64,000 nucleotides of DNA from a virus (taxonomy: Duplodnaviria > Heunggongvirae > Uroviricota > Caudoviricetes), in IMG/VR virus record IMGVR_UViG_3300029705_000018. One strand, given 5' to 3'. The notes under the pieces were generated by a model. It ran no database searches and was not told the origin of the DNA. It saw only the letters and a list, made by a program, of their open reading frames with translations. Position 1 is the stretch's first letter, and each line of letters begins with the position of its first letter. Positions 1-62,831 of the stretch are shown piece after piece. Made by a program: the position numbers and the translations under genes.

Positions 1-1155
1 GAAAATGCAATAATGGATTCTAAATTTAAAAACTTAGATGGTTTGGGTAAAGAAAATTTTCAAACTGTAATAGATTCATTTGAAGGAGACGAAGCAGATA
101 GAATCAATGAAATGATAGAGCACTTTGTCACGACAATGAATAGATTTTATTGGGCAAGTAAAGATGAATAGAAAAGTCAAAATGCATGGAAATATTTACA
201 AAATGCTTTAAAAGCCTTAGAAAAATCATTAACTGAATTAATGACTGAATTAAACATTTCTTCTGTAAATGAATTTGGAAATCAAACTGTAATGGGAGCA
301 ACTCTTGAAAAAGTTCAAACTGCATTAAATGCTTGCGGCATTACTTCATTTGATAGTGGTGTTGTAAATGAATTTTTAAAAAATGTAAATCAAATGAAGG
401 GTGATACATTAGAAGAATTAGGTGTTGCTTTTTTTAGAAAATTAAAGATCCCAAATATTGAAAGTATTCGTTTAGGTAGTGTTTATTTAAATACAGATGG
501 TAGAAAAGGTAGACATAGAGGTTAGTTAATTCAAGACTTAATTGCTTTTGATATTACTAGTCCAGATATTTTAAATGATATAGAGGTTGAATATCGTCCA
601 GTAGGATCTGATAAATATATAAAAGCTCCTTTGTCTAAATTATTTTAGGATATAGAAGCCGCCAATGGTCAAAATAAATAGATTTCAATCACAGATGAGA
701 CTTATGACGTACTTACTAATTTACAATCTATTAATATTCAGGCTAAGTCTGGTAAGAATCAGTTGCCATGGAACTAGAATGCTTCTACAAGTGTTTCTAT
801 TGGCGAATATGGTGAAGATAATTTAGATATATCAGTACGAAGAACTTTTTAGTTATTGAGTACTTTAAATGATGCTGAAAATGAAAAATAGCCTTGGGTT
901 GTAAAAGATAGCAGTCCTGACTACAATGCCTTAGCAAATTACGGTCTTGCTACTGTTATGCATAAAGTTTTACATTTATCAGAAGAGGGCAACCAGTATG
1001 TTTTAACTCCTTACGGCTTTATGACATTCTCTAAAAGAATGGAACAGCTATTAAAAACTGAAAATTATATTGCTTTAATTCAAGGTAATGTTGTTCTAGA
1101 AGGCGATAAGACTATGACTGATAAGCGTAAGGTTGGTATTACCAAAGGAAATTAA
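1..1155 (+). CDS. Phage structural protein, 5' partial. Frame 1 is continuous from position 1 to the TAA at 1153-1155 once TAG is read as sense. There are 7 in-frame TAGs at 169, 523, 646, 679, 775, 850 and 889.
   Basis: ORF-track fragments 241..525 and 958..1155 are both in frame 1. Manual translation of the gaps finds only TAG interruptions and no TAA or TGA. Position upstream of the tail genes. Confidence 0.6.
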
Positions 1156-1158
1156 AAT

Positions 1159-1187
1159 TTGACTCGCTCAAATTTTTTTGATATAAT
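1159..1187 (+). promoter_or_regulatory. Sigma-70/sigma-A consensus promoter TTGACT-N17-TATAAT with extended -10 TG
   Basis: TTGACT cgctcaaatttttttga TATAAT, read directly from the sequence. Lies upstream of gene 1218. Confidence 0.7.
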
Positions 1188-1217
1188 ATATAAAAAGAGA
1201 TAAAGGAGTGTTTATAA

Positions 1218-1757
1218 ATGGCAAAAATTCCATTTTCTAAACTTGATATGAAAATCAATTCTCGTGATTTTGTTATGTGTCACGAAAATTCAAAGGGAGA
1301 AGTTATCCAGTATGAAGTAAAAAACTATCTTCCTATTAAAGAAAAAATGGATTTAGTTTCTCGTATTATTAATCAGTCTACTGATGATAATGGTTTCTAT
1401 AATCCTATGAGAGTAAAGTTATATACTACTTTAGAAATGGTATATACTTATACTAATTTAACTTTCACTCCAAAGCAGAAAGAAGATCCTTTTAAATTGT
1501 ATGATTTATTAGTAAGTACCGGTTTATATAATGATATTACTAGTCATATTTGTACTGAAGATTTAGAGGAATTGGAAGGAAGTATTTGGGATACTATTAA
1601 AAGTATTTATAATTATCGTAATTCTGCTATGGGTATTTTAGAAAATATTACTGCAGATTATAGTAATTTAAATTTAGATGCAACTGAAATTCAGAGTAAG
1701 TTAGCTGATCCAAATAATATGGCTTTATTAAAGGATGTATTGGCTAAATTGGGCTAA
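1218..1757 (+). CDS. Hypothetical protein of 179 aa, possibly a tail assembly protein (it sits directly upstream of the tape-measure gene). No TAG; ends with TAA.
   Basis: Intact ORF. RBS AAAGGAG 8 nt upstream. A consensus promoter lies at 1159..1187. Confidence 0.7.
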   Translation: MAKIPFSKLDMKINSRDFVMCHENSKGEVIQYEVKNYLPIKEKMDLVSRIINQSTDDNGFYNPMRVKLYTTLEMVYTYTNLTFTPKQKEDPFKLYDLLVSTGLYNDITSHICTEDLEELEGSIWDTIKSIYNYRNSAMGILENITADYSNLNLDATEIQSKLADPNNMALLKDVLAKLG

Positions 1758-1804
1758 TTACATTTATTAACCTATCTAGATTTTCAATCTATTTAGGAAT
1801 AATC

Positions 1805-1847
1805 GCCGGTTAGATTATTTCAATCTAACCGGCTTATTTTTATTTTG
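1805..1847 (+). terminator. Rho-independent terminator
   Basis: Hairpin gccggttagattatttcaatctaaccggc followed by a T-run. Confidence 0.7.
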
Positions 1848-1881
1848 CAAAATAAAAATTGGAGAGAAAGGAGTATTTTAA

Positions 1882-4800
1882 ATGGCTAAACAGTTAAATG
1901 TAGATTTGCGATTTACGGCAAGTAATACACAAGCTAAACAGCAAATCCAAGATTTACAAAGTGCTTTAAATAATTTAATGACTACTGCAAGTAAAAATAC
2001 CACAGGCCTTGGTATTACTAAAGATATAGCTTAGGCAACTAATGAAGTCGCTAAATTATAGGCAATGTTAGAGTCTTCTAAAAATGCATCTGGTGGTTTA
2101 GATTTAGGTAAATTTAATCAGAGCTTAAGTTAGGGACAAACAAAAATTTCTGATTATGCCAGAACTCTAAGTTCTTTAGGTCCATAGGGAGATCAAGCTT
2201 TTGCTAAATTAGCAAAAGCAATTATTAACGCTGAAGTTCCTTTAAAAAGAACAAATAGTGTATTAAAAGAATTTAAAACTTCTCTTATGAATACTGCTAG
2301 ATGGCAATTGTCTTCTAGTATGTTACATGGTTTTATGGGAGCGGTACAATCTGCCTATGGTTACGCGCAAGATTTAAATGAATCTTTAAATAATATTCGT
2401 ATTGTTACTGGAGCAAATATTGATGAAATGTCACGATTTGCAAAAGAAGCTAATGCGGCAGCTTAGGCTTTAAGCACAACTACTACAGAATATACTAACG
2501 CTTCTTTGATTTTTTATCAATAGGGTTTAAGTGATGAAGAAGTTGCCAAGAGAACAGAAGTAACTGTAAAAATGGCAAATGCCGCAGGTGAAAGTGCTTA
2601 GAAAATTTCTGATCAATTAACTGCTGTTTGGAATAACTTCTATGACGGTTCCAAATCTTTGGAATATTATGCTGATGTTATGACTGCTCTTGGTGCAGCA
2701 ACTGCATCTAGTACTGATGAAATTGCAGGCGGTTTAGAAAAGTTTGCGGCAATTGGTTAGACTATTGGTTTAAGTTATGAATATGCTGCTTCTGCATTAG
2801 CAACTATTACTTCTAACACTCGTCAAAGTGAAGAAGTTGTTGGTACTGCATTAAAAACTATTTTTGCACGTATTCAAGGTTTAAATTTAGGTGAAACTCT
2901 TGAAGATGGAACTTCTTTAAATAAATATTCAGAAGCTTTATCAAAAATTGGAATTAGCATTTTTGAGTAGAATGGCGAAATCAAAAAGATGGATAACATT
3001 CTAAATGAAATGGCTGAAAAATGGGGAACTTTAGCGAAGGATCAACAAATTGCTTTAGCATAGACTGTTGCTGGCGTTCGTCAATATACTTAGCTAATTG
3101 CTTTAATGGATAACTGGAATGCTGGAGATTCTGATAGTATGACAGCTAACTTAAATACTGCTTATAATGCCACTGGCACTTTACAAGAACAAGCAGATAT
3201 TTATGCAGAATCTTGGGAAGCTGCAAAAGATAGAGTTACTGCAGCGGCAGAAGAAATTTATAACCAATTATTGAACGATGAATTTTTTATTGATTTAAAT
3301 AATGGTTTTGCAGGTTTCTTAAATATTATCTCTGATACTATCGACACTCTTGGTGGATTACCTGGAGTACTTACTGTTGCATCTAGCCTCATGATTAAAA
3401 TGTTTGGTAAAGATATGGCAAAAGCGATTGATGATTGGGGATATAATATTAAATTGCGCTCTAAAGAGGGCGTTTAGTCTTTAATGGAGCTTAGAGAGCA
3501 AGCAAAAAATTCTTTAAAAACAATGTATGCAGATAATGTAGACACTGGTCCTATAAATTCTGCATCTCAAATTGCTTTCAGTGAATATGCTTCTTTAACA
3601 GATGTAGTATTAGCAAAACAAAAAGAATTAACTGCTCAAGGTTAGATGCTTTCAGAAGAAAATCAAAAGCAAGTTCAATATTTATTACAAGCAAATGAAG
3701 CATATGGAGAGCAAGCAATTCTTGCTGCAAAATCTTTAGAGGCAGCTGAACAGTAGACTCGAGAAAATGAGATGCAATTAAGATATGCTGTTTAGAAGCA
3801 AAATACAAAAAATCCTGAAGACAAAAAAGTTGATTTTAAAACAACTTTAAAACCTCAGATTGATGAAGCTCAAAAAGCTTAGATGTAGTATTCTTCTTTG
3901 TATGATGTTTTTTTGAAATTAAAACAATTACAAAATAAAGGTTTAGATAGTGCAACAATAATTAAAGAACTGACTGAAATGAGTAATTAGGCTAAAGCGG
4001 CAGGCCTTGATATTTCACATTTTGATGCCATTTTACACTCTTTAAATAACGGAGATAGCGTAGTAGTTACTTTAAATGCAATTGAAAGCAATTTAGATGA
4101 TCTTGCATTGGAAGCTTTAAATACTGCAGAAACTGTTAAAAATTCTTTAACTGGAATGGGAATGGATGGCACTCAAGTTGATGCAATTCTTGATTAGTTA
4201 ATTGAATCTTGGAGACAGCAAGGTATTGTTACTGCGGATTTAGCAGAAAAATTAAAAAATATAAAAGTTAATGGAGATGCTGCGGCAGAAGCTATTAGTG
4301 GAATGCAAGGTCCTCCACCAACTGTCGGCCAGAAATTTATGGCAGTTGCAAATACAATTAGTAATATTGCTATGAGTATTAATGTAGTAAAAGGATTAAT
4401 TGATACTTGGAATAATGAAGATATGAGTTTTGGAGAGAAATTACTTTCCACTTTTACATCTCTTGGAATGGTTATTCCAATGGTTACAACTGCTTTTACT
4501 GGAAACAATCTTGCAATGTTAGGTAGTGTTTCTTCTTCTATTGTTGCAGCAGCAGGTTTTGATGGTGTTGCTATTTCTGCAAAAGTTGCTGCAGGTGGTG
4601 TTGGAGCATTGTGGGCAGCTTTATGGCCTATTGCATTAGTAGTTGCAGGCTTGACGTTAGTAATTACTGCATTAGCAGCTGGAGTAAAATATTTATCTGA
4701 TGAATATAATAAAGATGCTATTGCTGCTAACAAAGCTGCTGAAGCAGCAAATAATTTGAAAGAAGCATATGAAGAAACTAAGAAATCTTATGAAGATATG

Positions 4801-7800
4801 ATTTCTGCTATGGAAAATTATCAAAGTGCTAGAGACAGTCTTGATAATTTAACTAAGGGTACTGAAGCATATCGAGATGCCTTAAACGGAGCGAATGAAG
4901 CAGCTTTACAATTAATTAAAGCTGGTAATTTGATTCGTGGAGAAGATTACGATATTGTCGGTGGAGAAATCATTATTAAACAAGAATCAATTGATGCGGC
5001 TAAAGAAAATCAATATGGAAAAGTTCAAGAAGCATATGCTGCAAGTACAATGGCAAATGCAAATGCTAGTCGTTTAAAAGCTGAGGCAGATCAAACTAAA
5101 CTTACTCGAACTGATGATAAATCTATTTGGTAGGGCGTAGTTGAAGGTATGGTCACAGGAATGGCTGCAATGATGATTACTGGTAATGCTCCAGCAGTTT
5201 TAGCAGGTGCATTAACGGGTGGAGTTGTTGGAGCTATTGATACTGCTCTTATAAATAAAGCTAGTAATGAAGCACAACAAAAACAAATTGATGATTTAGT
5301 AGCTCTTTATGATGAAATGGGAGAAGCTGCTTTTGATTCTGTAGAACTTCAAAAATTAGGCATTGATACTGCTAATGAAGAATATATTAATTCTTTAAAA
5401 GAAATTGTTCGTGCTACCCATCAGGCTGCAGAAGAAATGGAAGTCGCCGCTGAGTTAGCCGCAACCTCTATTTTGAGTCAAGATGAGCGTTTTGCAAAGT
5501 CTCAAGATAGTGAAGAATTATATGCAGCAAGTGGAGAAATATATAATAAATTATATCAAGATAATTTAAAAAAATATCAAGAAGTTGATATTGCCAATTG
5601 GGTAGGAGCTGGAACTGAAGATGCTAAAGATTTATGGAATAAATATTTAGAGGCTTCTGGCTTAGACGAACTAAGAGGAATTAAAGCCACCAATTTTAGA
5701 AAAGATAATACTGTTGACTATGAGTATTATGATGAAGAGGGTAAGAAGCAAGAAGCTAATGTTGATTTGGCTACAATGGCTGCGGCAGTTGCAGCTGCAG
5801 AAGCAAATAATTTATTAGCTGATTCAGCAAATGTATTACTAGGAATATTTAATGAATTAAATAATTCTGGTAATGAAGCTGCTTAGGCATTAAAAAATAT
5901 TATCGCTTATGAAAATGTTGAAAAATCAACTAGAGCTGAGTTTGATGATTTAAAAAATGAATATGAATCAGCAGAAGATAAAACTGCTTATTTAAATGAA
6001 GCTTTTGGTGGTGCTGATGGTGTTATTGATGAAGCTGAATTAAAGGCTTTGGGGTATGATTCCATAGAAGCTTTATAGGCAGGAATTGAATAGGCCATTG
6101 AAGATGGTGAAGATGCTTGGGATGATGTTGGTAAACATTTAACTAGCACTGCAAAAAAAGCATTTAAAAATTCTATGGATTCTGGTATTTTTGATGATTT
6201 GACTTTAGAACAAACTAATCAAATGGCAGATCTCTTCCAAGATGCTTTCGCCAAGGGTGGAGTTGAAGGTTTAGATTCTCTATAGAATAGTTTAAATGTA
6301 ATGTTTGAGAAGTCTGGTCAAGATGCTGGAAAAATGGCTGCAATCTTAGCAAATGTTGATTGGCAAACTACTAATATTGAAGATTTAACTGCAATTTTAG
6401 AAGACGCAGGCATTGAAACTGATGGTTTTGCTAATGAGCTAGAAAACTTAATAGACTTAATGCAAGAGGGTCAAAACATTGGTTTTGACGGTGCGGCCGA
6501 TATTTATAAAACTGCTCATGAGATTATTGATGATCTTAAAACTGGAGATACTATTTCTAGTGAAGATTATGATAATCTTAAAACTATGGGCATTAATATG
6601 TCTGACTATTTTGTTCAAATGGCAGATGGGTCTTATAAATTAACTGCTGATGCAAAAGAATTCTATGATGTTGTTAATGCTAAAACTTTAGAACAATTCC
6701 AAAATAATATTGACGCTTTACGCGGTCAAAAAGCAGATGTAAATAATTTACAAAATAGTACCTATGATAAGGATTCTATTGCTACAATGGATACTAATAT
6801 GATAGGTATGATTAAACAAGATAATGATAAATTAGGAGATCAATTAACTTTCTTAAAAGCAATTGGTTCTGATTTAGAAAATCTTGATAGCTATATTCAA
6901 GAGATTGAAGCTGGTAGACAATTAACCCAACGTCAATTAAGAGAAATTCGCAACGAACTTGAAGAAAATGCTTGGCAATGGGATAATTTATCTCAAGTAA
7001 CTGAAGGGTTTGATGCAGAAATCCAACGTAATATGGATGCATATGCTATGTCTGCAACTACAGTTGGAGATTTAAATGATATGCTTCGCGAAGGATTAAT
7101 TAATGCTGAAGCATATAATAAAGCAATTGAATCCGTAATGGATGTGGAATTTGAGGCTGAAGGGTTAGATGTAGAAGCCGCTAATGATGTAGCAGATGCT
7201 TTCCGTGAAATGGCAGATGCTGGTGAAGCAGGCACAGAAGCTTTAAAAGACAATGAAGAAGCTGTTAAAGATGCTACTGTTCGTTATATGGAACTTAACG
7301 AAGCTATTACTGATATTTATGATAATTATGATGATTATATAGATGTTTTAAAAGCAGCAAGAAAAGCTTCAACTCCTTTAGAAAAAGCTAACCTATTAAA
7401 TGAAAAATCTGCTAGATCTTTAAGAACTTCTTTGGCAGGTTTGCTTGGCACTACAGAAGATTTAATTGATGCAGATTTAATGGCAGCAATTAATCCAGCA
7501 GATTTCGAAGCAGCTGCAAACGGTAGTGTTGAAGCTATTGATAGAATTAGAGAGGCTTTTATAAAATTATAGATTGAAGGTATTGATGGAATTACACTTG
7601 ATGGCTTAATGGCTGAATTAAATGCATTTAATGATGGTGCTTATATTGATTTAGACAATATGCCAATGCTATGGTCTTTAATTGAAGCAAAGGTTGCCGC
7701 AGGTGCAACTGCAGCTGACATTGAAGCTTTGTTAAGTGGTTTGAACATCGATGCTGATGTTAGTGATTTCTATGGTACGATGGAAGAAATGGCAGCTATT

Positions 7801-10800
7801 GCAGAGCAAGCTGGTTCTCGTGTAGTACAAGCTACTTCTTTCTCTCAAACATCAACGACTGAAACTGAAGCTACTCCACGTACAGTTGATAATGTAAATT
7901 TCACTGAAACTGTTACAACTACTAATCATCCGTCTATTGCGGCAGTGCCTATGACAAATGGTTTTGGACCATTAATTTATGGTACTAATATGGTTAGTTA
8001 TTAGAAGTCTGTAAGTGTTGATCCAGTAAGTTATCAAACTCAAGATACTGCAACTGCTACTGAAGTTGTCACTGAGAACGCTGCGGGTGAAGAAGGTAAA
8101 GTTCGTGGTATTTAGATAAATGGTGCTCATAAAGCTCCAACTGCTTCTAGAACTCCAAGTCCAACTAATACAACCAGAAAACCTGTATCATCAGGCAGTG
8201 GCGGTGGTGGTAGTAGTGGTAGTAAAGCAAAAGAACCTTCTAAACCAAAATAGATGGATACCACTAAACAAACTGATGTAGTAAAAAGATATAAAGAAAT
8301 TGATGATGCGCTTGATGATTTATCTGATGAATATGATAGAGCTTCTAAATCTGCAGATAGATTATGGGGCGAACATCGTTTAGATGCTCTTCGTGAACAA
8401 AATGCTTTAATTGAAGAGTAGCAAGAATTGTTAGCTGAAAAATAGCGTCAAGCAGAACGCTATATGAAACAAGATCAAGTTGCTTTACAATAGGCTGCAG
8501 CTGCAGCGGGATTAGCCTTCTCATTTGATGATAAAGGTAATATTACTAATTACACTGACTAGATGACTGTCCTTTATAATCAGTTAGCTGCCGCAGAATC
8601 TCGTTACAATTCTCTTGCTACTGGTGAAGCTCAAGAGTCTTATGAAGAAACTATTCTTGACCCTCTAAAAAATAAGATCCAAAACATTGAAGATGCAATG
8701 GAGTTATACGAAGAGAGTAAAGAATTATTTGAAGAATTGGGTATTAACATTGAAGATCTTCAAGATTAGATTATGCAAAATAATTATGATATTATAATGG
8801 ACGGTTTAGAGCTTCATATTGGTTTTAATGAAGAAGATTTAGAAATAATTAATTATTATTTATCTAAGATTGAAGATGATTTTTATTCTATGGCTGAAGC
8901 TGCTGCTTTAATAGCAAATCCAAAAGGAAATAGTCAATTGACTGAGTATATTTCTAATTTAGAAGAATATGAATCTTCTCTTCAAGGATTAAATAAAGCT
9001 TATGTCGCAGGAGAAATTACTGAAGCAATGTATCAAGAAGGCTTAGAAGAAGTCCGTTCTGGTATTAGAGATAATTTAAGTTCTTTAGTTGAATTAGATA
9101 ATACTATGAAAGAGTATTATAGTAAAACTCTAAATATGGCCTAGGAAGAATTAGCGAAGTATACTGACCGTATGGAGCATCAAACTGAAGTTCTAGAACA
9201 TTATCAATCTTTAATGGAAATTCTTGGCAAAGAAACTGACTATAACGGTTTAGGAATTATTCTTGAAGGTCAAGCAAAAACTATTGAAAATCAAATGAAG
9301 GTTGCTAAAGAAGCATATGCTATGTATCAATCTGAAGCAGATGAAAAGAAGAAATTGCTTGATTAGGCTATTGCCACAGGAAATACTGAAGCTGCAGAAG
9401 TATATCAGAAAGAATGGGAAGCTGCTAATGCTGCTGCCATGGAAGCTCAACAAGATATGCTTGATAAAACTGAAGAGTGGGCTGATGCATTACGAGCAAT
9501 ACTGGAGAATAAACTATCTGGTTTCGCTCAAAATTTAGAGAACGCTCTGACCGGAGGCACATCTTTTGATACTTTAACTACTTCTATGGAGCGAGCAGCT
9601 AGTCTACAAGAAGAATATTTAACAACGACTAACCAAATTTATGAGACTAATAAGTTGATGCGCGTTGCACAGCAAGCTATTGATAATTCCACTAGTAGTA
9701 TTGCAAAGCAAAAACTAAAAGGATTTATTAATGAAACTAAGCAATTGCAAGATCAAACAAAGTTAAGTAAATACGAGTTAGAAATTCAGCAAGCAAAATA
9801 TAATTTATTATTGGCTGAGATGGCTCTAGAAGATGCTCGTGATGCGAAAACTGTTGTTAGATTAAAGCGTGATAATGAAGGCAATCTTGGTTATGTATAT
9901 ACCGCAGATCAAGATAAGTTGGCCGAAGCGCAACAAGAGTTAGAAGACGCACAAAATAGTTTATATAATATTGGATTGGAAGGCGCTAATGAATATAGTG
10001 AAAAGTATCAGCAAACCATGAGTGAAATGTATGATACATTTACTGAACTCCAAGAGCAGTATTTGAGTGGTGAATTCGAAACTGAAGCTGAATATCAAGA
10101 TGCTATGTTAAAAGCTAAGGAATATTATTATGAAAAATTGAAGAGTTATTCTTCTCTGCATCAAATAGCATTGACTACAGATAGTCGAGTCATTGCAGAT
10201 GCTTGGTCTTCTGATTATAGCGAAATGATTTTCAATACTGAAGATTGGATGCGCGCAGTTACTGAATATGTTGGTAATGTAAATCTTGCATTTGACGAAT
10301 GGGAAGAAAATGTTGATACTATTACTAATGAGACTCTTGGACCAAATCTTGATACTCTTGAAGATAACGTTAAAGATATTACAGATGCTAATGATGCTTT
10401 AACTGATTCTATCGTAAAAGATGGCGGCGTTATTGACGCTATTGAGTCTGAATTGGATCAAGTTAGTGAATTGACTGGTAAATACGCTAATTTAAGACAA
10501 TAGATTCAGGGACTGATTGCGGATCATGAAACTCTTATGGTACGTATTGGCAATGAACCTAATCCTTACACTCCTCCTGGAACTGGTACTTCTGGAAGTT
10601 CTTCTTCTAGCGGAGGTAGTAGTGGAAGTTCTAATTCTGGTAATTCTTCTAGTGGTAGTGGTCGAGGTTCTAGTACAGCAAGCACATCTTCTGGAACTAG
10701 TACTAAAGAAGCAAGTGCTCCAGAATATAGTGACACTACTAAGCAAGGAGTTGCTCTCGCAATTTGGAATGGTGGTTTTGGTTGGGGTAACGGTACTACC

Positions 10801-51458: not shown

Positions 51459-51505
51459 AGTTATCTCTCTTTCTTATAGCGTAGCTAAGTTGTAGTTAGC
51501 AACAG

Positions 51506-53725: not shown

Positions 53726-53729
53726 TTAA

Positions 53730-53760: not shown

Positions 53761-53797
53761 TCTCTACTAAATATGGGTTTATGGATTGATCACTTAA

Positions 53798-54364: not shown

Positions 54365-54365
54365 T

Positions 54366-54560: not shown

Positions 54561-57500
54561 TTATTCGTCTCCTTGATAACGAGCATCTAATAGTTTCAAA
54601 TCACCATTAGGATAAATTTTATCAATTTTATATAACTGGTGTCCACCAGTTGAAGCATACTTCTTAGAAATGAAATCATCACCAGAACGAATACCAGTTA
54701 CCACAATCATATTACCTCGATTGAACCAGGACTTTTCCATGATCTTCTTAGTTCCATCGGGTTGACGAGCAGAAATCTGCTTATCAAATAATGTGAAATA
54801 TTCTTTTCTAAATTTCACATTTACAACACCTGTGTTAGTCAAAATAGTAACTGTACTCTTAGTTTTATTCTTCGCGATACAAGTTCCGCAAATACGATTC
54901 AAGTGAAAGATATGGATTTCTTTGTCACCCTTTTTAAAAGTCTTTTCAATTACGGGGTCTTCTGGCAAAGCAAAGAAATCAACAAAGCCATACTTGTCAT
55001 TATTTACATGAGCCAATTCGTGCTCATGATAATAGAAGCACAATACTTCCATCTCCCATGCGGAGATACTGCCCTGGGCATATTTCTCCCAGTCTTCCAT
55101 GAAGATTTTTGTATTCAATGCTTCAAGGATTTCTTCCTTATCAGTAGCAATCCAATTTCTGAAAATGTTCATATACTTCTGATATACATTATCCCAAGTC
55201 TTGACTTTGATAAACCAAGCGAGATTATCGCTTTCCATCAAGTCTTCACATTCAATTTCATGTAAGAATGAAATTGCTCGTGGATCAAGACTATACATAT
55301 CTTTGTAAGCACATTCATCAGCCTTTGTAATTGCTTTTAGATAACGATTGAACTCATAAACTCTACGAGCCATAATTTGCTCTTCTGTGGATTCAGGTAA
55401 TAAACCATGCTTGATAAGACCACCCATATTCTGTAAAGTCAAACGGCTCTTCTTATCACAAGTCTCCCACAGATACCATGCCATTACGAAACGACGATCT
55501 TCCATATCATCAAAGGCACCGCCCTTGATTAGAGAAATCATTGCTTGCTTACCGGGCTTTACTTTCTGTAAGAAATCCTTGGGAGAAGCATATGGTCTAT
55601 TTGCGATGATTGCGGCGATAACATCATCGCCGACATTTAGCATACCTTTCAAACCAAACAGAATACGATTATTTTCCACGTCGGGAGCAAATCCAAATTG
55701 AGATTTATTGATATCAACCAGACTCACCTTGATGCCAGCCGCACGAATATCTCCAATTGCCTTAGCAATCTTACCATAGTCAGTGCTTGCGGTCTTACGA
55801 ATCTTACCAGACCGATCGGGCAGATCCTGGAAAGTCACGCCTTCGCTTAGGTCTTGTCCTTCTGGCTCATAAATATCAACAATCTCTTCTTCACTATTAT
55901 CTTCCAAAGAACCACTATTGACAATCAGACAAGCTGTATTCCAGTAGATGGGATTGAAATTCATGGCAAGATAAATAGATTGCATACCAACGAATGAATA
56001 AGGTAATGAGTGATTCAAGCTAAATGCGTATCCTAACTGAGGGGCAACCGCATTTTCCCAGAAGTAATTCGCAGAATTGACATGGTCAAATCTACTATAT
56101 ACATCCTCGCGCAACTGCGGAATCTTACTCATTTGCTTTTTACCGACAATCTTTCTTGCGGTATTTGCTTCACCTAATGTGAAGCCAGCGACATCCATCA
56201 ACAGTTCCATCATTTGCTCCTGGATTGCACAACAACCCCAATATTGATCACAATGCTTATGCATCAACGCAATCATATTAGAATCAAGTCCTGCTTGAAC
56301 CATTTCTCGATGAAACTCAGTCAAACCTTTCCGTTGAATACGGACGTATCTGTCCTGCTGAGACTCTTTGCCTTTTTCGCTCATCAGTCTCATCATGGCG
56401 TTTGCCGCAGTCATCTCCATAGGATTTTGAGGCTTCAACTTTTTCGCAATGGCTAGACCGACACCTGTGCTGAACTGAAACACGTCCAGAACATCACCGG
56501 CCGCAAGGTGATCCCAAATGCGCTGGTCAGTTGTATCCATTACTTCTGGATGGATATATTTATTATATAATTCACGCAAACTCAAATCTGGAATTACTTT
56601 ATCTGCTACCAAAAGTTCAAAACATTTAATAATCTTATCAGAAATTTCAGTAACCAGGAAGTCGTACTTAGTATCACCTGCGGCCTCAGCTTTATGTAGG
56701 TCATAACAGGTAATCAAGTCACCACTAGGAGTTCTCATAAAAGCTGCTGTATCAAATGGATCATCACCATATAAGATAACACCAGATGCGTGAGAAGAAC
56801 ATTTATTTACAAGTCCATCAATGGACTTGATAATATTTAGCAAACCAGGATACTGATTTACTTCTCGAATGAAAGCAACAACAGGCTTTCTGTCTTTACT
56901 TTCATTACCATTAACAACATCATCAATAGACCACAAAAAACCACGTTCCTGTGGGATTAGAGATGACATATATTGGGCTTGGTCGACATCAATTCCATCA
57001 GGAAAATCTTCACTTCGGTATCCTCGGCAGGCGGTAAGGATGGCTGATTTAGTTCCTTCTGTGCCGAAGGTTCCAACTTGGATAAGTCCAAGTTCACCTC
57101 TTTCTTTCCGAATTCTTCGAAAGATTTCTGGTCGCTTTGAGGGAGCGAGGTCAATATCAATATCGGGCAACTCAGCTCTTTCTTTGTTAAGAAAGCGCCA
57201 ATATGGTAACTTCCATCGTACTGGATCAAGTTGGGTGATACCCAAGAGATAGTTAGAGAGGAATCCAGTCGCTGAACCTCGTCCTGGACCAACGATACTG
57301 CCGCACTCCCAGAAGAGGTCAATATAGTGTTTGAATGTGTTGAAATAAGCGAAGAGACAATCTTCAAGCTTTCTTCCAATGTCGTCAATTACGTCTGCCT
57401 CCGTTTCAAGTCTATCCCAATATTCTCTCTTATCAATGAAGCCTTTTTCGTGCATACTCTTCAAGCATTCACCCAACCAATATCTCTCTTGATCATTACC

Positions 57501-58526
57501 CGCACAAATAATGCGATCTAAAGTGGGCCACTGATAAGAATCCCATTGAATATCTTCTGGCAATAAATCCCAAAGATTATCATAAAATGGAACTTGAACT
57601 TTAGGAATAATCTGCTTACGCTCCAAAGAGTAATCTTCAATTTTACTCTGAGCTTCTAAGGTCGCCGCAAAAATATCATCAATATCAACATCACTAAATG
57701 ACTTTGACAATAATGTTCGACACTCTTCTGGACTCATTAAATATGCGAACTCATAGAAGTCATCAACTTCTCGTTCACCATCTTTTGAGTTCAAATAAGA
57801 TTTATGGACAAATCTATCTTCTTTTGTCAAATAATGAGAGTCAGTACCAACAACCATATTGATACCATATGCTTTCGCAATTCTCATTAGTTTGCGGTTG
57901 ACCTCACATTGTTGACTTGCGCTTGAGGGAGCGCACTCAATATAAAAATCATCACCAAACAAGCCTCGACAATAATCAATAAAATCGCAAATCTGGTCAT
58001 AATAAACCTTTGCGTTTACCATATCATTTACTCGTTCAGCCTGCGACATATTCCAGGCGGCGGTAGATAATTCACCACCAAGACAAGCAGAGGTCGCAAT
58101 TACATGGCCACGATATTTGCTAATGATTTTAGTCATTTCTTCTTTCGTGATTGGCACACGCTTCATACCTCTATCAGTATAAGCGTAATACCATGCAATA
58201 GAACTCAATTCACGAAGTGCCTTATGTCCGATGGCATCCTTCGCAACTAAAATAAAGTGATAATATTTTATACCACTTTCTCGTTTATCTACTAAATAAA
58301 CCTCATTGCCTAAAGCGATTTTGAAGTCGGGATGGTTCTTTTTAACTTCCTTCGCATATTGATTTACTTCCATATGACCACTAATACATTCATGGTCAGT
58401 AATCGCAATGCCAGAAAGACCCAACTCAATCGCTTTGTCAATGAGGTCTTTTGGTCTATTGATACAATCGAGCAAGCGGATATTAGAATACATAGTATGA
58501 TTGTGAATATTGAAGTAAGTTGTCAT
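54561..58526 (-). CDS. dnaE: DNA polymerase III alpha (DnaE-type, family C) with an N-terminal PHP domain, 1,321 aa
   Basis: PHP motifs HNHTMYS...ITDHE. Palm motif LPDIDIDL. Uninterrupted ORF. A consensus promoter lies upstream at 58562..58590. Confidence 0.8.
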   Translation of the reverse strand: MTTYFNIHNHTMYSNIRLLDCINRPKDLIDKAIELGLSGIAITDHECISGHMEVNQYAKEVKKNHPDFKIALGNEVYLVDKRESGIKYYHFILVAKDAIGHKALRELSSIAWYYAYTDRGMKRVPITKEEMTKIISKYRGHVIATSACLGGELSTAAWNMSQAERVNDMVNAKVYYDQICDFIDYCRGLFGDDFYIECAPSSASQQCEVNRKLMRIAKAYGINMVVGTDSHYLTKEDRFVHKSYLNSKDGEREVDDFYEFAYLMSPEECRTLLSKSFSDVDIDDIFAATLEAQSKIEDYSLERKQIIPKVQVPFYDNLWDLLPEDIQWDSYQWPTLDRIICAGNDQERYWLGECLKSMHEKGFIDKREYWDRLETEADVIDDIGRKLEDCLFAYFNTFKHYIDLFWECGSIVGPGRGSATGFLSNYLLGITQLDPVRWKLPYWRFLNKERAELPDIDIDLAPSKRPEIFRRIRKERGELGLIQVGTFGTEGTKSAILTACRGYRSEDFPDGIDVDQAQYMSSLIPQERGFLWSIDDVVNGNESKDRKPVVAFIREVNQYPGLLNIIKSIDGLVNKCSSHASGVILYGDDPFDTAAFMRTPSGDLITCYDLHKAEAAGDTKYDFLVTEISDKIIKCFELLVADKVIPDLSLRELYNKYIHPEVMDTTDQRIWDHLAAGDVLDVFQFSTGVGLAIAKKLKPQNPMEMTAANAMMRLMSEKGKESQQDRYVRIQRKGLTEFHREMVQAGLDSNMIALMHKHCDQYWGCCAIQEQMMELLMDVAGFTLGEANTARKIVGKKQMSKIPQLREDVYSRFDHVNSANYFWENAVAPQLGYAFSLNHSLPYSFVGMQSIYLAMNFNPIYWNTACLIVNSGSLEDNSEEEIVDIYEPEGQDLSEGVTFQDLPDRSGKIRKTASTDYGKIAKAIGDIRAAGIKVSLVDINKSQFGFAPDVENNRILFGLKGMLNVGDDVIAAIIANRPYASPKDFLQKVKPGKQAMISLIKGGAFDDMEDRRFVMAWYLWETCDKKSRLTLQNMGGLIKHGLLPESTEEQIMARRVYEFNRYLKAITKADECAYKDMYSLDPRAISFLHEIECEDLMESDNLAWFIKVKTWDNVYQKYMNIFRNWIATDKEEILEALNTKIFMEDWEKYAQGSISAWEMEVLCFYYHEHELAHVNNDKYGFVDFFALPEDPVIEKTFKKGDKEIHIFHLNRICGTCIAKNKTKSTVTILTNTGVVNVKFRKEYFTLFDKQISARQPDGTKKIMEKSWFNRGNMIVVTGIRSGDDFISKKYASTGGHQLYKIDKIYPNGDLKLLDARYQGDE

Positions 58527-58561
58527 TCTATTATCCTCTTTCTTTTTACTTATTATACTAT

Positions 58562-58590
58562 ATTATATCAATTTTTTTTATGTAAGTCAA
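58562..58590 (-). promoter_or_regulatory. Consensus promoter TTGACT-N17-TATAAT (minus strand) upstream of the polymerase gene
   Basis: Reverse complement reads TTGACT tacataaaaaaaattga TATAAT. RBS AAGAGGA before the pol ATG at 58526. Confidence 0.7.
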
Positions 58591-59779
58591 TCTTTGGTGA
58601 CAATCACCAATTTCTCTGCCGCACGAGTGGCCGCAGTGTATAACCAACGAGCATGATCAACGGGCTGGAAGGGGAACTTTTCTTCCAGAACCAAGACGTT
58701 ATCCCATTCAGAACCCTGCGCTTTATGACAGGTAATGGCATATCCATAAGTAAATTCCTTTGGCACAACATCGCCAATACGATTTTTTAGCTTATTCAGC
58801 TTATACTTATCACGCCATTCAAGCTCGCTTTCGCCGCCCTTCATAATGCGAGGGTCCATATTGATATGACCATAATTCTCACCTAAGTCAGATTCAAATA
58901 CACCAGTAAGGATATTGATCTTACCCTTCTCATAAGCGTAAAACGGGACATTGATATGACTATACTTGGGATCATGTAATGTTCCAATAGTGCCATTTAC
59001 CAATGGGTCGCCGTTAGTCAAATTACCCCAGTCCCAGTAATTCCGCAGACAAATAACTTTATCTCCTTCTTCTGGCTCAGGTCCAAAACCTCGTTGCTGA
59101 CGCATGAAATCATTCATACTGTGCCGTTGTAGATTAGTCGCAACAAGAACCTGGTCTGCCCAATCAAGCATTCCGGTATTGAGCGCGCTGGCTGGATAAA
59201 TTTGAACTTGGTCATTCTTTATATATTCCAAAGGCTTCTGGTCTCGAATATCCATAGTCAAACGGATAATACCAGATTCAGTAGCCTGTCTCATAATTTC
59301 ATCAAGGAAGATATGAGGATGGTCAAGCAAATGATTATCCTCGTCTTTCTCAATGGGTGGCAACTGGAACGGGTCGCCAAGACAAATTACATATACATTA
59401 TGGGAGAATAATTTATCCATAATACTCTTGGGCGCCATGGACACCTCATCAACCACAACGACTGTATATTCCAAAGATTTCTTTGGGATTCTAGTAAATC
59501 CACCGCCTGGACGAGGCACGCTATCATAAAGCAGACGATGTAGAGTCATTGCGTTCTTATTGCCCTTCTTAGCTAGAACCTGGGCGGCCTTGCCTGTAAA
59601 AGTAGCAAAGCAAACTTTATTATGTTCTACATCTAATGCTTCAATGATAAATTTTACCAGAGTGCTCTTTCCTGTACCTGCCTTTAGGCGTAGCCAGCAA
59701 TCACAGTGTACTTTTCATGTGCTCTGTGTCTGGCTACGGCAATTTTCAAACCTTCTTCTTGCTTTCTTGTAAGAATCAC
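58587..59779 (-). CDS. Dda/RecD-like SF1 DNA helicase, interrupted. A 31-aa N-terminal ORF (59684..59779, GTG start) ends at a TAA. The Walker A motif onward (AGTGKST...DEVSM...GDPFQLPP...HKAQGSEWD) continues in the -1 frame, which has no start codon of its own.
   Basis: Hand translation around 59680-59720. The frames are consistent with one missing nucleotide near 59684-59690. Confidence 0.55.
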
Positions 59780-60336
59780 AGTTCTACTTCCTCTCTTTCT
59801 TCAATATTCAAATCTTCAATATTCCATAGATTATCATGTAGTTCTTTATGACAATTAGAACAAATTAAAATACATTTTTTACTTTCTTCTACTGCTTCTA
59901 ATAAGTGAAAATGGTCATTGCTAATTGTAAAATCTTTTTTAGAGGGGTCAATGTGATGAAATTCTAATGCTTTTATACATCTATCATATCCACATCTTAT
60001 ACATTTTCCACCACGAGATTCTTTTATTTTAGCTAAAAACATTCCTCTCGTTAATTGAACTCCATTTGGCATACAGTTATAACAACAGGTTCTTTGATGA
60101 GCCGTAGAAGTTAAAGGATAAAATTCTTTTCCACAAATGGGACAAATTTTTGGTTTTCCTTTATAAGAAGTATCTTTTTGATTCTTTTCTTTATTGGCGT
60201 ATTTTTCTCTGCGCGAAGCGTTTTGACATTCTATACTACAGTATTTTTTAGTAGAACGGATTGCCTCAAATTCATTTCCACACATAACACATTTATTTAT
60301 CATATATTTTCTCCTTTTTTGAAATATTTCTTTCAT
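59776..60336 (-). CDS. HNH endonuclease with N-terminal Zn-ribbon repeats, 186 aa
   Basis: C-terminal CIRCGYDR...LEFHHIDP...N...CSNCHKELH HNH motif. Several CxxC pairs. Confidence 0.75.
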   Translation of the reverse strand: MKEIFQKRRKYMINKCVMCGNEFEAIRSTKKYCSIECQNASRREKYANKEKNQKDTSYKGKPKICPICGKEFYPLTSTAHQRTCCYNCMPNGVQLTRGMFLAKIKESRGGKCIRCGYDRCIKALEFHHIDPSKKDFTISNDHFHLLEAVEESKKCILICSNCHKELHDNLWNIEDLNIEEREEVEL

Positions 60337-60404
60337 TATATTTCAAAAATAAGACAAGTAAATTCGTCAGCTTTGTCCGGAGTTTTACACAACGAACTTA
60401 CCTA

Positions 60405-60422
60405 ACCAAAGTTGCACAAGCA
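60405..60422. promoter_or_regulatory. Perfect 18-bp palindrome AAGTTGC-ACAA-GCAACTT between the HNH gene and the upstream gene. Operator-like, or a short terminator stem.
   Basis: Read directly from the sequence. Coordinates are approximate to within 2 nt. Confidence 0.35.
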
Positions 60423-60427
60423 ACTTA

Positions 60428-60661
60428 TCAATCATGCTCTCCTATTGCTTCATCTAAAATCTGAATAAAACGCATCATATCTCGTTCATGCCTACGTATG
60501 ACAGCCTCATGTGCTTTTGGTTCAGAGAACCCTTTACACTTCATCAATTCAATTTTGTCGTGTTCAAAGGCTTTTGCCTGGTATTCCTTAAAACGGAATA
60601 CCAGACTATCAAACATATAACCCTTTAAATGCTTATTATCACTAAAATGTACTTTTTCCAT
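60428..60661 (-). CDS. Hypothetical protein of 77 aa. An internal Met start is used because a consensus promoter sits immediately upstream and the longer ORF overlaps the next gene.
   Basis: ORF track gives 60428..60757. Promoter at 60681..60709 with ATG 60659-61 downstream. Confidence 0.45.
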   Translation of the reverse strand: MEKVHFSDNKHLKGYMFDSLVFRFKEYQAKAFEHDKIELMKCKGFSEPKAHEAVIRRHERDMMRFIQILDEAIGEHD

Positions 60662-60680
60662 ACTAATACCTTTTATTTTT

Positions 60681-60709
60681 ATTATACCAAAATATTTCTT
60701 ATAAATCAA
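60681..60709 (-). promoter_or_regulatory. Near-consensus promoter TTGATT-N17-TATAAT (minus strand)
   Basis: Reverse complement reads TTGATT tataagaaatattttgg TATAAT. Confidence 0.55.
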
Positions 60710-61028
60710 TAAGGAACATATTGTTGTCCAATTTAAGAAAATCTTCATCCCACTCAATTTGGGGAAAAATTTCTAAATCGCTTTTTTGTTTTGGGTTTTC
60801 GGCTGGCGCGTCTGGCACCGGTCGGATGGCGTCTTGGAGAGCAATTATATTGGCAATAGCATTGCTTATCGCTCTTTCAAGTTCATCGACTCTACATTCA
60901 AGCACTCGAAAAGAATCACTCAATGTAGTTGCAGTACTAGCCATATCACAAGTTAGCATATCAACTCTATCTTGGATTAGATCAACCATGTACTTTGCGC
61001 CATCAGCAGTTAATACTTGTAATGCCAT
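60699..61028 (-). CDS. Hypothetical protein, 109 aa
   Basis: Intact ORF. TAA stop. Confidence 0.55.
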   Translation of the reverse strand: MALQVLTADGAKYMVDLIQDRVDMLTCDMASTATTLSDSFRVLECRVDELERAISNAIANIIALQDAIRPVPDAPAENPKQKSDLEIFPQIEWDEDFLKLDNNMFLIDL

Positions 61029-61037
61029 ATATCCTCC

Positions 61038-62831
61038 TTAGAAGTAATACTTCTGTTCACCAACAATTTCATAATCCTCAATAATAATTTGAGGAGAAAC
61101 ACTTCCGTTCCAGACATTGCGTTCACATTTGCCAACTACATTGATGGTGATACAACCCATCTCACTCTTCAACTTCTCATATTCTTCTTGAGAAGATTTG
61201 AATTTGATAAGACTTGTGCCATTTGGTAAAGTGATCTTCAAAGTAGGACTCTTATCGGGAGACATGAGCACAATATTACCGCTTGATACATTGATATGTT
61301 CAATAGCAACAAATGGTTCATCAACGCCTTGACCCCAAAGAGATTTCAAACCAGCAATCTCAATGATATCACTACCTCTGAAATCTGCTCCACTGAAAAT
61401 GAAATCAACTTTATAACAAGGAGTAAAATCAAACTCAGCCAAAGCCTTATTTGAATACTCCACAAATTCAGAAAATACTTTATCGTAAATGCCAACGCCG
61501 AGCGCATTAGCATGGCCTTCCGCATACATTACCAGGCCACTATTTTGTAGGAACTGGCGCAAATTATCAAACTTAGATTTATCATAACCACGACCAGAGC
61601 CTTCCCAGCTTTGCTCCTGTAAAGTCATAATCTTCTTACCATTGGTATCAAATATGTCTTGCTCAGTAATTGTCTTATTCAGTAGTAAAACTGGACGCTG
61701 GTATTTAGCCATAAGTTGGTTGGCGATAAGACCGGTTAGATTGCGATCCGCAGAAAAAGAATCCAGCTTGATTGCCAGAATTTTATTCTTCAATAAATCT
61801 TTTTGCTTGATAATAGCTTCAATAGTCTCAAGCGCAGCATCTCTTGCCTTAGTCTGACGATTTTTGATATTCGTACAATTTCGGCACGCCTGCTCTACGC
61901 GAGTTTCTTGCTGACCCTTACAGCCTCTCTTGGTTGAAGGAATTAGCTCATATCCACGATAATCTAACATCGATTCAAACATCAATAACTTTTCCTCTTG
62001 GCTACCCATTCGGATAGTAGCATTGACATATGGAGCAACATAGAACGCAATACCAATAGGAGTGATACCGTCCTTTAGCGAATACTGTTGCTTATCAACC
62101 ATGCCTTTGAAATAAGGATTTCTGATATTTTGTAAGCCACGATGAATTAAATGCTTGGTTTCAAAATCTCTCAAATCCATCATATCGGCAATCATGCCAA
62201 GAGCAACCAAATCAAGAAACTGATCGGCATAATCAACATTCATAAGTTCGTCAATATAAGAACAAAACTTATAAACCATGCCGACACCAGAAAGAGATTT
62301 AGTTGGATAATCACATAGCTGGTTATTGATAACGCAAGCATATTCGCTAACTTTTTCAGCTTCGTGGTGGTCAATAACCAGAACATCTACTCCACGCTCA
62401 TGGAGCTTTTTATGTTCTTCATAATCATTTGAACTTGAGTCTGGCGCAATTACCAACTTTACATCAGCTGGAATTGTATTGAGAATAATACCATGTTCTT
62501 TACCATTATGGATGCGGTAATAAACATTATTCTGAACATATCCAGGAAATAGGCAGTTCAAATAATTGATTAGTGTTGCCGCTGAAGTGTAACCATCACA
62601 GTCGCTATCAATTTGGATTAGGATCTTGTGTCCTTGCGAGATGTGATAAATCAACAGCTTTACACCCTACGCGATATTCGCAATAAGGGAGGGTGCTAAA
62701 ATGTCTTCATCAGTTGTATTTAGATAATGCTCAATTTTATCGGGTTCAATGCCACGATTTACGAGTACCTGTTCGACCGCAGATAAAACATCCTTGTGCG
62801 GGATGCGAGGTACTATTAGTTGATATTCCAA
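61038..62831 (-). CDS. recJ: RecJ-like DHH-family single-strand DNA exonuclease of about 597 aa. The N-terminal 54 aa are reached only by reading the TAG at 62667-69 as sense.
   Basis: Motifs DSDCDG, VIAPDSS and VIDHH. The extension LSAVEQVLVNRGIEPDKIEHYL...ILAPSLIANIA-Q-GVKLLIYH matches the RecJ N-terminus. TTG start after RBS AAAGGAGG. Confidence 0.75.

What the first reader, a model, noticed from the sequence alone, without database searches (positions are those of the whole stretch)
1..62831. Amber (TAG) reassigned to a sense codon, probably Gln, across the phage
About 80 TAG codons sit in frame inside 16 genes. In each case the frame on either side is identical and contains no TAA or TGA. 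Translation across them yields coherent proteins: a 3,129-aa tape-measure protein, RuvC regaining its catalytic C-terminus and RecJ regaining its N-terminus. None of the roughly 44 genes ends with TAG (about 28 end in TAA, about 10 in TGA). A Q-rich stretch, PQQP-TAG-QVAQ-TAG-QPVYQ in gene 45555, suggests Gln. The ORF track treats TAG as stop and so reports these genes as fragments. No tRNA, including a suppressor tRNA, release factor or glutaminyl-tRNA synthetase gene is visible in the window, so the decoding machinery must lie elsewhere on the genome or come from the host.
Basis: partly seen in the sequence, partly recalled or inferred. Interest (0 to 1): 0.9.

Follow-up and report, generated by a model that had tools for sequence, protein, structure and literature searches.

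The report
Gut phage reads TAG as glutamine
This 64-kb stretch of a 183-kb SPbeta-like gut phage uses the stop codon TAG as a glutamine codon in its late (tail and lysis) genes. This trick is already well documented in other gut phages, and here the tRNA that would do the decoding could not be found in the 61% of the genome I could reach.

Summary
With TAG read as sense the window resolves into 44 genes at 95.1% coding density. Table 11 gives 80 fragments at 85.7%. There are 83 in-frame TAGs in 14 genes, and no gene ends in TAG (32 TAA, 12 TGA).

Codon-level alignments to related phages show TAG exchanging mainly with CAA and CAG, with the same substitution profile as true Gln codons. TAG therefore most likely encodes Gln (genetic code 15).

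Recoding does not run across the whole phage. It is confined to late tail and lysis genes. The minus-strand replication genes have 2 TAGs in 5,023 codons, and a 14.6-kb tail-fibre island (25771-40407) has none.

The phage is a circular 183-kb SPbeta-like genome, distantly related to phAss-1 (NCBI taxon "Caudoviricetes code 15 clade"). The ENA copy of this genome already carries gene calls that read through TAG.

No tRNA of any kind occurs in about 112 of the 183 kb I could reach. A distant recoded relative does carry a Gln-like tRNA(CUA).

Verdict: a new member of a known kind, of modest interest. The only open point is how UAG is decoded.

The parts
1..1155 (+). C-terminal 384 codons of a 441-aa late protein of unknown function. 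It has 7 in-frame TAGs in the window and 9 in the whole gene.
   Evidence: The frame is open apart from TAG. The ENA gene call for the same DNA is a single 441-aa product.
1882..11271 (+). Tape-measure protein, 3,129 aa, with 36 in-frame TAGs.
   Evidence: Pfam PhageMin_Tail (E = 2e-26) covers residues 192-398, across several TAGs. A CW_7 repeat lies near the C-terminus.
11468..16972 (+). 1,834-aa tail or baseplate protein with 5 TAGs.
   Evidence: orthologues in L085, L087 and L089 carry TAG or CAA at the same sites
17426..20272 (+). 948-aa tail protein with 5 TAGs.
20272..23169 (+). 965-aa tail protein (phrog_32343, and weakly the tail-protein family phrog_1887) with 9 TAGs.
   Evidence: Eight of its 9 TAG sites align with TAG, CAA or CAG in relatives.
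23551..25707 (+). 718-aa fibre-like protein with 5 TAGs.
25771..40407 (+). TAG-free island of seven tail or adhesin genes, including a 2,156-aa BspA-type LRR protein. It has 0 TAGs in 4,788 codons and a CAA:CAG ratio of 75:74.
   Evidence: Orthologues in relatives L085 and L089 carry 0-7 TAGs each, most of them 2 or more. L087, the closest relative here, carries none. The island is therefore a mosaic module.
40559..42664 (+). 701-aa fibre-like protein with 5 TAGs.
   Evidence: ENA calls it as one 701-aa product; JGI's table-11 calls split it into 4 pieces
42697..44871 (+). 724-aa protein with Flg_new repeats and 3 TAGs.
44893..45300 (+). Holin (phrog_13712) with 0 TAGs.
45555..45989 (+). 144-aa Q-rich protein with 3 TAGs, containing the stretch PQQP-TAG-QVAQ-TAG-QPVYQ.
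46000..46254 (+). 84-aa protein with 1 TAG.
47446..48027 (+). 193-aa protein with 1 TAG.
48024..48335 (+). 103-aa metalloprotease-like protein with 1 TAG. The PHROG match spans the TAG.
   Evidence: phrog_1233, residues 3-89
48905..49390 (-). RuvC-like resolvase, 161 aa, with 1 TAG at 49031-49033. Its catalytic DECDAI motif lies downstream of the TAG.
61038..62831 (-). RecJ exonuclease, 597 aa, with 1 TAG at 62667-62669. The start is TTG at 62831, behind an AAAGGAGG motif.
48382..63998 (-). Replication and nucleotide-metabolism block: dUTPase, NrdG, NrdD, guanylate kinase, DnaE-type Pol III alpha, UvrD-like helicase and RecJ. It has only 2 TAGs in 5,023 codons and none as a stop, so it reads the same under the standard code.

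Best explanation
The window is 35% of a circular phage genome of about 183 kb. The phage is an SPbeta-like siphophage with a DnaE-type polymerase, and it uses genetic code 15, in which UAG encodes glutamine.

Shown:
- TAG is read through in at least 14 late genes and never terminates a gene.
- Among relatives, TAG is evolutionarily interchangeable with CAA and CAG.
- TAG-rich genes are depleted in CAG (CAA:CAG 232:44, against about 1:1 elsewhere). This is what C-to-T conversion of CAG to TAG would produce.
- Replication genes are almost free of TAG, so they read the same under the standard code.

Inferred, from the model of Borges et al.:
- Infection starts under the host's standard code.
- A UAG decoder then becomes active, and only then can tail and lysis proteins be completed. 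Recoding thus acts as a timing or safety lock on late genes.
- The most abundant virion parts (tube, YonB-like protein, prohead protease) avoid TAG, while the low-copy tape measure has 36. This suggests that UAG decoding is costly or only partly efficient.

The decoder is not in the window, and not in the 112 kb of this genome I could read. My estimates are:
- about 0.3 that a canonical Gln-type tRNA(CUA) sits in the unread 71 kb;
- about 0.7 that decoding relies on something ARAGORN and Rfam cannot see, or on something supplied in trans.
For: Gene structure:
- Coding density and gene count.
- 83 TAGs, with no gene ending in TAG.
- Open frames against off-frame stop density.
- SD motifs at code-15 starts but not at post-TAG restart codons.
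- Domain matches spanning TAGs.

Gln assignment:
-. TAG changes go to Gln 44%, Lys 14% and Glu 9%, mirroring CAA and CAG. 14.6% of Gln-codon changes go to TAG.

Independent copies:
- The sequence is 100% identical in independent assemblies from ENA, JGI and IMG/VR.
- ENA gene calls on the same contig already read through TAG (3,129-aa tape measure).
- Circular 183-kb genome.

Distribution of TAG:
- Late versus early genes.

Wider lineage:
- Relatives are recoded too.
- A distant recoded relative, L125, carries a tRNA(CUA) with a U1-C72 mismatch and G73. From general knowledge these are features of tRNA-Gln. It resembles one of the phAss-1 suppressor tRNAs.

Literature:
- PMC10607447, PMC9523058, and bioRxiv 10.1101/2021.08.26.457843.
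Against: - No protein-level evidence exists; the amino acid is inferred from substitution patterns only.
- No tRNA of any kind was found in the window or in about 48 kb of flanks of the same genome. None with a CUA anticodon was found in about 70 loci from close relatives. The decoding step is therefore unproven.
- The holin has no TAG, so the idea that lysis genes are the most heavily recoded is not obviously met here.
- RecJ, RuvC and a GIY-YIG endonuclease lie among early-type genes yet carry TAGs.
- The TAG-free island is explained by mosaicism, not by timing. This shows that TAG content is not a clean read-out of expression class.
Confidence: 0.9

Rival explanations
1. UAG is decoded as Gln without any phage-encoded canonical suppressor tRNA. 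Possible routes are a phage factor that neutralises RF1 so that host tRNA-Gln(CUG) reads UAG by first-position G-U wobble, a suppressor supplied by the host or by a co-resident element, or a non-canonical tRNA.
For: - There are zero tRNA genes in about 112 of 183 kb of this genome, and no CUA tRNA in any close relative locus.
- The positive controls worked.
- Borges et al. detected TAG suppressor tRNAs in only 40% of TAG-recoded genomes.
- Two recoded genomes of the phAss-1 group also lack them.
- Abundant virion proteins avoid TAG, as expected if decoding is inefficient.
Against: - 39% of the genome is unread.
- Thirty-six TAGs in one essential protein demand high per-codon efficiency, which near-cognate reading rarely reaches.
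- The distant relative L125 and phAss-1 do carry Gln-like tRNA(CUA) genes.
- No candidate RF1 inhibitor was identified.
Confidence: 0.4
2. UAG is a sense codon but encodes something other than Gln, for example Glu, Lys or pyrrolysine. Glu is conceivable if the host lacks GlnRS and the suppressor tRNA is charged by a non-discriminating GluRS without transamidation.
For: Glu and Lys codons are the next most frequent partners of TAG. At 24-34% identity to standard-code proteins, TAG sites align with D, L, K, Q, Y, R and V, which is uninformative.
Against: The TAG substitution profile matches that of CAA and CAG, not that of GAA or AAA, whose own top partners are Glu/Asp and Lys/Arg. Changes to TAG are ten times more frequent from Gln codons than from any other well-sampled amino acid. 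TAG-rich genes are specifically depleted in CAG. TAGs also sit inside a Q-run.
Confidence: 0.06
3. The TAGs are genuine stops. The genes are pseudogenes, assembly errors, or sets of independently translated fragments.
For: JGI's table-11 gene calls list the fragments as separate genes.
Against: - Only TAG interrupts the frames; TAA and TGA never do, across 10,687 codons.
- The sequence is identical in independent assemblies.
- TAG positions are conserved or swapped with Gln codons in relatives.
- No SD motif precedes the restart codons.
- Conserved domains span the TAGs.
Confidence: 0.01

Closest known systems
phAss-1 and the proposed Phassvirus group (Babkin et al. 2023, PMC10607447; NCBI taxon 'Caudoviricetes code 15 clade')
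   Same: - Gut siphophage with TAG read as Gln in tail, tape-measure and other late genes.
- A tape measure of about 3,100-3,200 aa.
- DnaE-type Pol III alpha and NrdD/NrdG.
- Affinity to SPbeta-like phages and probable Clostridia-type hosts.
- Detectable protein similarity: tail protein 28.8% identity, prohead protease 36.9%.
   Different: - Only distant similarity, with no DNA-level match.
- The genome is 183 kb rather than 136 kb.
- phAss-1 has 36 tRNAs. Two of its three tRNA(CUA) genes lie next to nrdD (the third was not located here). This phage has no tRNA next to nrdD or anywhere in the 112 kb examined.
Alternatively coded gut phage clades of Borges et al. (Lak, crAss-like, Jade, Sapphire, Agate and others) and the earlier report by Ivanova et al. 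2014
   Same: - Low-GC phages whose predicted hosts use the standard code.
- Recoded stops concentrated in structural and lysis genes.
- Replication genes compatible with the standard code.
- Mixed codes within one clade. Here relative L050 uses TGA as Trp.
- Suppressor tRNAs often undetectable.
   Different: Membership of any named clade was not tested, because no terminase tree was built. The holin here is TAG-free. A large TAG-free island inside the late operon reflects module exchange.
crAss-like phages with experimentally validated code 15 (Peters et al. 2022, PMC9523058)
   Same: The same reassignment (UAG to Gln), proven there by metaproteomics.
   Different: An unrelated lineage (Crassvirales, Bacteroidota hosts). 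There is no proteomic evidence for the present phage.
Bacillus phage SPbeta and SPbeta-like phages of Firmicutes (standard code)
   Same: Shared structural and replication families: YonD, YonB, YonG, YomU, YomV, YomW, YorF, YorH and DnaE (precomputed Pfam hits).
   Different: Those phages use the standard code. The present lineage is larger and is known only from metagenomes.
E. coli supE-type amber suppressor, tRNA-Gln(CUA) (from general knowledge)
   Same: A functional analogue: a Gln tRNA with a CUA anticodon inserts Gln at UAG. The tRNA(CUA) genes of L125 and phAss-1 share the weak 1-72 pair and G73 typical of tRNA-Gln.
   Different: No such gene has been found in this phage so far.

Membership tests
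Genetic code 15 (TAG to Gln) alternatively coded phages | Many in-frame TAGs inside otherwise open, conserved genes | tested here: met
   83 TAGs in 14 genes. There are no in-frame TAA or TGA codons in 10,687 codons. Domain matches span TAGs.
Genetic code 15 (TAG to Gln) alternatively coded phages | TAG is not used as a terminator, and coding density rises only when TAG, not TGA or TAA, is read as sense | tested here: met
   0 of 44 genes end in TAG. Coding density is 95.1% with TAG as sense, against 85.7% (table 11), 87.0% (TGA as sense) and 88.3% (TAA as sense).
Genetic code 15 (TAG to Gln) alternatively coded phages | TAG aligns with glutamine in homologues | tested here: met
   Codon-level alignments to about 50 related loci. 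Alignments to distant standard-code proteins were uninformative.
Genetic code 15 (TAG to Gln) alternatively coded phages | Phage-encoded suppressor tRNA with a CUA anticodon. This is frequent but not universal: Borges et al. found it in 40% of TAG-recoded genomes. | tested here: inconclusive
   None in the window or in 48 kb of flanks, together 61% of the genome. The remaining 71 kb could not be fetched.
Genetic code 15 (TAG to Gln) alternatively coded phages | Recoding concentrated in late structural and lysis genes, with early genes compatible with the standard code | tested here: met
   TAG density is 8.0 and 5.7 per 1,000 codons in the two late blocks, and 0.4 per 1,000 in the minus-strand replication block.
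Genetic code 15 (TAG to Gln) alternatively coded phages | Gln observed at UAG positions in the proteins themselves | not testable with these tools
   This needs metaproteomics or expression experiments.
phAss-1 group / 'Caudoviricetes code 15 clade' | Signature gene set: a tape measure of about 3,100 aa, DnaE Pol III alpha, NrdD/NrdG, and SPbeta-like structural genes | tested here: met
   paper read
phAss-1 group / 'Caudoviricetes code 15 clade' | Monophyly with phAss-1 in TerL, major capsid protein, tape-measure and DnaE trees | not tested
   Only pairwise similarity was measured (28.8% and 36.9% identity). No trees were built.
SPbeta-like phages | SPbeta-family structural and replication proteins in conserved order | tested here: met
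   Precomputed Pfam hits for YonG_N, YonD_N, YonB, YomW, YomV_2nd, YomU_Tube, YorF and YorH on the same contig. These families are missing from the local Pfam copy, so the hits could not be reproduced.

The most novel reading that the evidence does not exclude
The complete 183-kb genome, and its close relatives, may encode no tRNA at all. UAG-to-Gln decoding of 36 codons in one essential protein would then be achieved by a mechanism not yet described for phages. One example is phage-directed removal of RF1 activity, which would let host tRNA-Gln(CUG) read UAG. Another is dependence on a suppressor carried by the host or by another mobile element. This lineage would then be a tractable, abundant model for the roughly 60% of TAG-recoded phages in which no suppressor tRNA has been found.
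Probability: 0.25. Interest if true: 0.7.

Novelty: new member of a known kind. Interest (0 to 1): 0.3.

Why it matters
In practical terms, table-11 annotation shatters the late genes of this abundant gut phage lineage into about twice as many false fragments. JGI's calls on the same DNA show this, and any functional or taxonomic analysis must use code 15.

In biological terms, the window adds a large SPbeta-like lineage to the recoded phages. That lineage has thousands of variants in public metagenomes, and it contains both TAG-to-Gln and TGA-to-Trp members.

The window also shows recoding at the level of modules. A TAG-free tail-fibre island appears to have been swapped in from a relative with few or no TAGs, and abundant virion proteins avoid TAG.

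The unresolved point is that no suppressor tRNA is visible in 61% of the genome or in close relatives. This touches the open question of how most recoded phages actually decode their reassigned stop codon.

Tried and rejected
- **GenBank phages (INPHARED), DNA level.** Megablast and blastn of window segments found no close relative.
- **MT835469.** tblastn of window proteins against this 176-kb human-gut phage, which shows no clear gain from reassigning any stop codon, gave alignments at 23-37% identity. Only nine TAG sites aligned, with no clear residue preference. This is too distant for the amino-acid test.
- **Walking out from the window to find the tRNA.**
  - A concatenated query (YonD-like protein plus ligase) was flooded by YonD variants.
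  - A second concatenated query recovered neither identical protein.
  - The single metagenome scan returned one 6-kb contig.
  - The genome-contig scan found only phage-sized contigs binned into Treponema, Acutalibacteraceae and Agathobacter MAGs, which does not identify a host.
  - Leftward walking through identical IMG/VR contigs added 20 kb.
  - Rightward walking was possible only in relatives at 71-85% identity.
  - About 71 kb of this phage stay unread.
- **Rfam at E<=1 on the window.** Only two chance-level hits (L20 leader, mir-616), rejected.
- **Identifying the TAG-free virion proteins.** The local Pfam copy lacks the PF27xxx SPbeta families, and PHROGs gave no function for the YonB-like protein. 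Its role as major capsid protein remains a guess.
- **Expression timing as the cause of the TAG-free island 25771-40407.** Rejected, because orthologues in other relatives carry TAGs.

Full report
**What is in the sequence**

The window has 36.4% GC. Under table 11 a greedy non-overlapping gene model gives 80 genes and 85.7% coding density. Thirty-eight of those genes end in TAG, and there are 11 strand switches. Reading TAG as sense gives 44 genes, 95.1% coding and 3 strand switches, and no gene ends in TAG (32 TAA, 12 TGA). The control reassignments gain almost nothing: 87.0% with TGA as sense and 88.3% with TAA as sense.

A curated list holds 83 in-frame TAGs in 14 genes. The largest gene, at 1882-11271, has 3,129 codons with 36 TAGs and no TAA or TGA. 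TAA+TGA density in the other two frames of the same genes is 4.5% and 12%. An open frame of that length therefore has a chance probability near e^-143.

Shine-Dalgarno 5-mers precede 25 of 42 code-15 starts, but none of the 62 start-like codons that follow in-frame TAGs. The table-11 fragments are therefore not separate genes.

- The tape measure carries a full PhageMin_Tail domain across several TAGs.
- RuvC regains its DECDAI motif, which aligns with DAADAL of E. coli RuvC. The weak Pfam RuvC match (E = 4e-4, below the gathering score) covers positions 2-142 of 148 across the TAG.
- RecJ regains an N-terminal segment that aligns with solved RecJ structures. Its start is TTG at 62831, behind AAAGGAGG.
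- The Q-run with two TAGs is present in gene 45555.

**Which amino acid**

Distant standard-code homologues were uninformative. I therefore used closer relatives at the codon level.

Proteins of the same lineage are abundant in public metagenomes. There were 7,624 hits at E <= 1e-30 for a query that joined the prohead-protease-like protein to a ligase fragment, and 2,268 at E <= 1e-20 for a tail protein. DNA around them was fetched from ENA, Logan and IMG/VR.

At 34 window TAG sites covered by relatives, the unique partner codons are CAA 16, TAG 14, CAG 6, GAA 8 and AAA 6. Where relatives have TAG, the window has CAA at 35 sites and CAG at 12, out of about 97 sites.

Pooled over window and flank genes, counting unique events:

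| Codon | Changes go to | Lys | Glu |
|---|---|---|---|
| TAG | Gln 44% | 14% | 9% |
| CAA | Gln or TAG 41% | 13% | 10% |
| CAG | Gln or TAG 45% | 12% | 12% |

Of all changes at Gln codons, 14.6% go to TAG. For Glu, Lys, Ser and Arg the figure is at most 1.4%.

TAG-rich genes are depleted in CAG (CAA:CAG 232:44), while TAG-free genes have about 1:1. This is expected if TAG arose from CAG by C-to-T change. TAG therefore behaves as a third Gln codon. No protein-level evidence exists.

**Where TAG is used**

| Region | TAG per 1,000 codons |
|---|---|
| Late block 1-25707 | 8.0 |
| Late block 40559-48335 | 5.7 |
| Tail-fibre/adhesin island 25771-40407 | 0 (in 4,788 codons) |
| Minus-strand replication block | 0.4 |

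The island is not a timing class. Most orthologous genes in relatives L085 and L089 carry 2-7 TAGs and are CAA-rich. L087, which is closest to the window in this region, is TAG-free and CAG-rich. The island is a mosaic module, probably imported from a relative with few or no TAGs.

Upstream of the window the tube, the YonB-like protein and the prohead protease have no TAG, while minor proteins have 2-9. Abundant proteins therefore avoid the codon.

**What the phage is**

The window is 100% identical to ENA contig ERZ27248436 k141_1895590 (183,267 bp). The two ends of that contig meet inside the window at 46,419-46,422. The genome is therefore a complete circle or circular permutation of about 183 kb, and the window is 35% of it.

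ENA's gene calls for that contig already read through TAG, giving a 3,129-aa tape measure. JGI's calls do not.

Neighbouring genes carry SPbeta-family domains (YonG, YonD, YonB, YomU, YomV, YomW, YorF, YorH) and a DnaE-type polymerase.

GenBank phages have no DNA-level relative. The nearest complete genome by protein similarity is phAss-1 (29-37% identity). It is a described TAG-to-Gln phage with a 3,149-aa tape measure, filed by NCBI under 'Caudoviricetes code 15 clade'.

One relative, L050, at 68% identity in the prohead protease, is instead TGA-recoded. Its coding density is 91.0% under code 4, against 75.9% under code 11, and 7 of its 13 in-frame TGAs align with Trp. Mixed codes within a clade are known from Borges et al..

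**How it is decoded**

The window has no tRNA by ARAGORN, by Rfam at gathering score or at E<=1, or by a custom scan for a CUA anticodon arm plus T-loop.

I extended the search to 9.5 kb on the right and 38 kb on the left of the same genome and found none. About 70 loci from close relatives, around the prohead protease, ligase, gyrase and lysin genes, also have no CUA tRNA.

The tools do find both tRNA(CUA) genes next to nrdD in phAss-1. They also find one inside a 12-tRNA array of L125, a distant recoded relative. The shorter phAss-1 tRNA(CUA) and the L125 one share a U1-C72 mismatch, G73 and the anticodon arm GGTCTCTAAAACC. From general knowledge these are Gln-like identity features.

About 71 kb of this genome could not be fetched, so the decoder remains unidentified.

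Borges et al. detected TAG suppressor tRNAs in only 40% of TAG-recoded genomes. Taking a prior of about 0.5, informed by that figure and by the phAss-1 group and L125, and allowing for the 61% coverage with nothing found, I put about 0.3 on a canonical tRNA(CUA) in the unread part.

**Assessment**

It needs the refinement that recoding is limited to late genes and varies by module.

The phenomenon is well established: Ivanova et al. 2014 (from general knowledge), Borges et al., Peters et al. 2022 (PMC9523058, with proteomic proof in crAss-like phages) and Babkin et al. 2023. This is a new member of a known kind.

The only part with real upside is the apparent absence of tRNA genes in this lineage.

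Noticed in passing
L054 10,217-20,216 and L057 1-13,500 (same phage, early region to the left of the structural module): At least 24 copies of a near-consensus extended -10 promoter, CTTGACAAA-N12-TGnTATAAT. They are spaced every 90-1,000 bp (mostly 250-1,000), each ahead of a small ORF. GC here is 42-52%, against 36% in the window.
   Followed up: partly
window 25771-40407: A TAG-free, CAG-rich, higher-GC3 island of seven tail or adhesin genes (including a 2,156-aa BspA-type LRR protein) inside the TAG-rich late operon. Orthologues in some relatives carry TAGs, so it looks like a recently exchanged module.
   Followed up: yes
L050 (IMGVR_UViG_3300028591_000099): A relative of the same lineage is TGA-recoded. 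Coding density under code 4 is 91.0%, against 75.9% under code 11, and in-frame TGAs align with Trp. Both code 15 and code 4 therefore occur in this family.
   Followed up: partly
L125 12,202-16,458 (IMGVR_UViG_3300012979_000253): A distant TAG-recoded relative carries a 12-tRNA array. In it a tRNA(CUA) sits directly after tRNA-Leu(UAA), the same adjacency (Leu, then CUA tRNA) as in phAss-1. The L125 tRNA(CUA) and the shorter phAss-1 one both have a U1-C72 mismatch and G73.
   Followed up: partly
L007/L020 (10 kb upstream of the window): The tube (YomU-like), the YonB-like protein and the prohead-protease-like protein have 0 TAGs, while neighbouring minor proteins have 2-9. Abundant virion proteins avoid the recoded codon.
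   Followed up: partly
L029 520-987 and 8189-10843; L062 1257-4337: Relatives encode an Mtd_N-domain protein, a possible target of a diversity-generating retroelement. Their ligase is split, and their GyrB gene is interrupted by a GIY-YIG homing endonuclease.
   Followed up: no
L095 1-9,800 (relative, beyond the gyrase genes): A second late-type block lies on the far side of the replication module. It holds an M15-peptidase lysin and three fibre-like proteins with 4-11 TAGs each.
   Followed up: no
window 46,419-46,422: The two ends of the 183,267-bp ENA contig meet here with a 4-nt overlap. The window bridges them, which shows the genome is circular or circularly permuted.
   Followed up: yes
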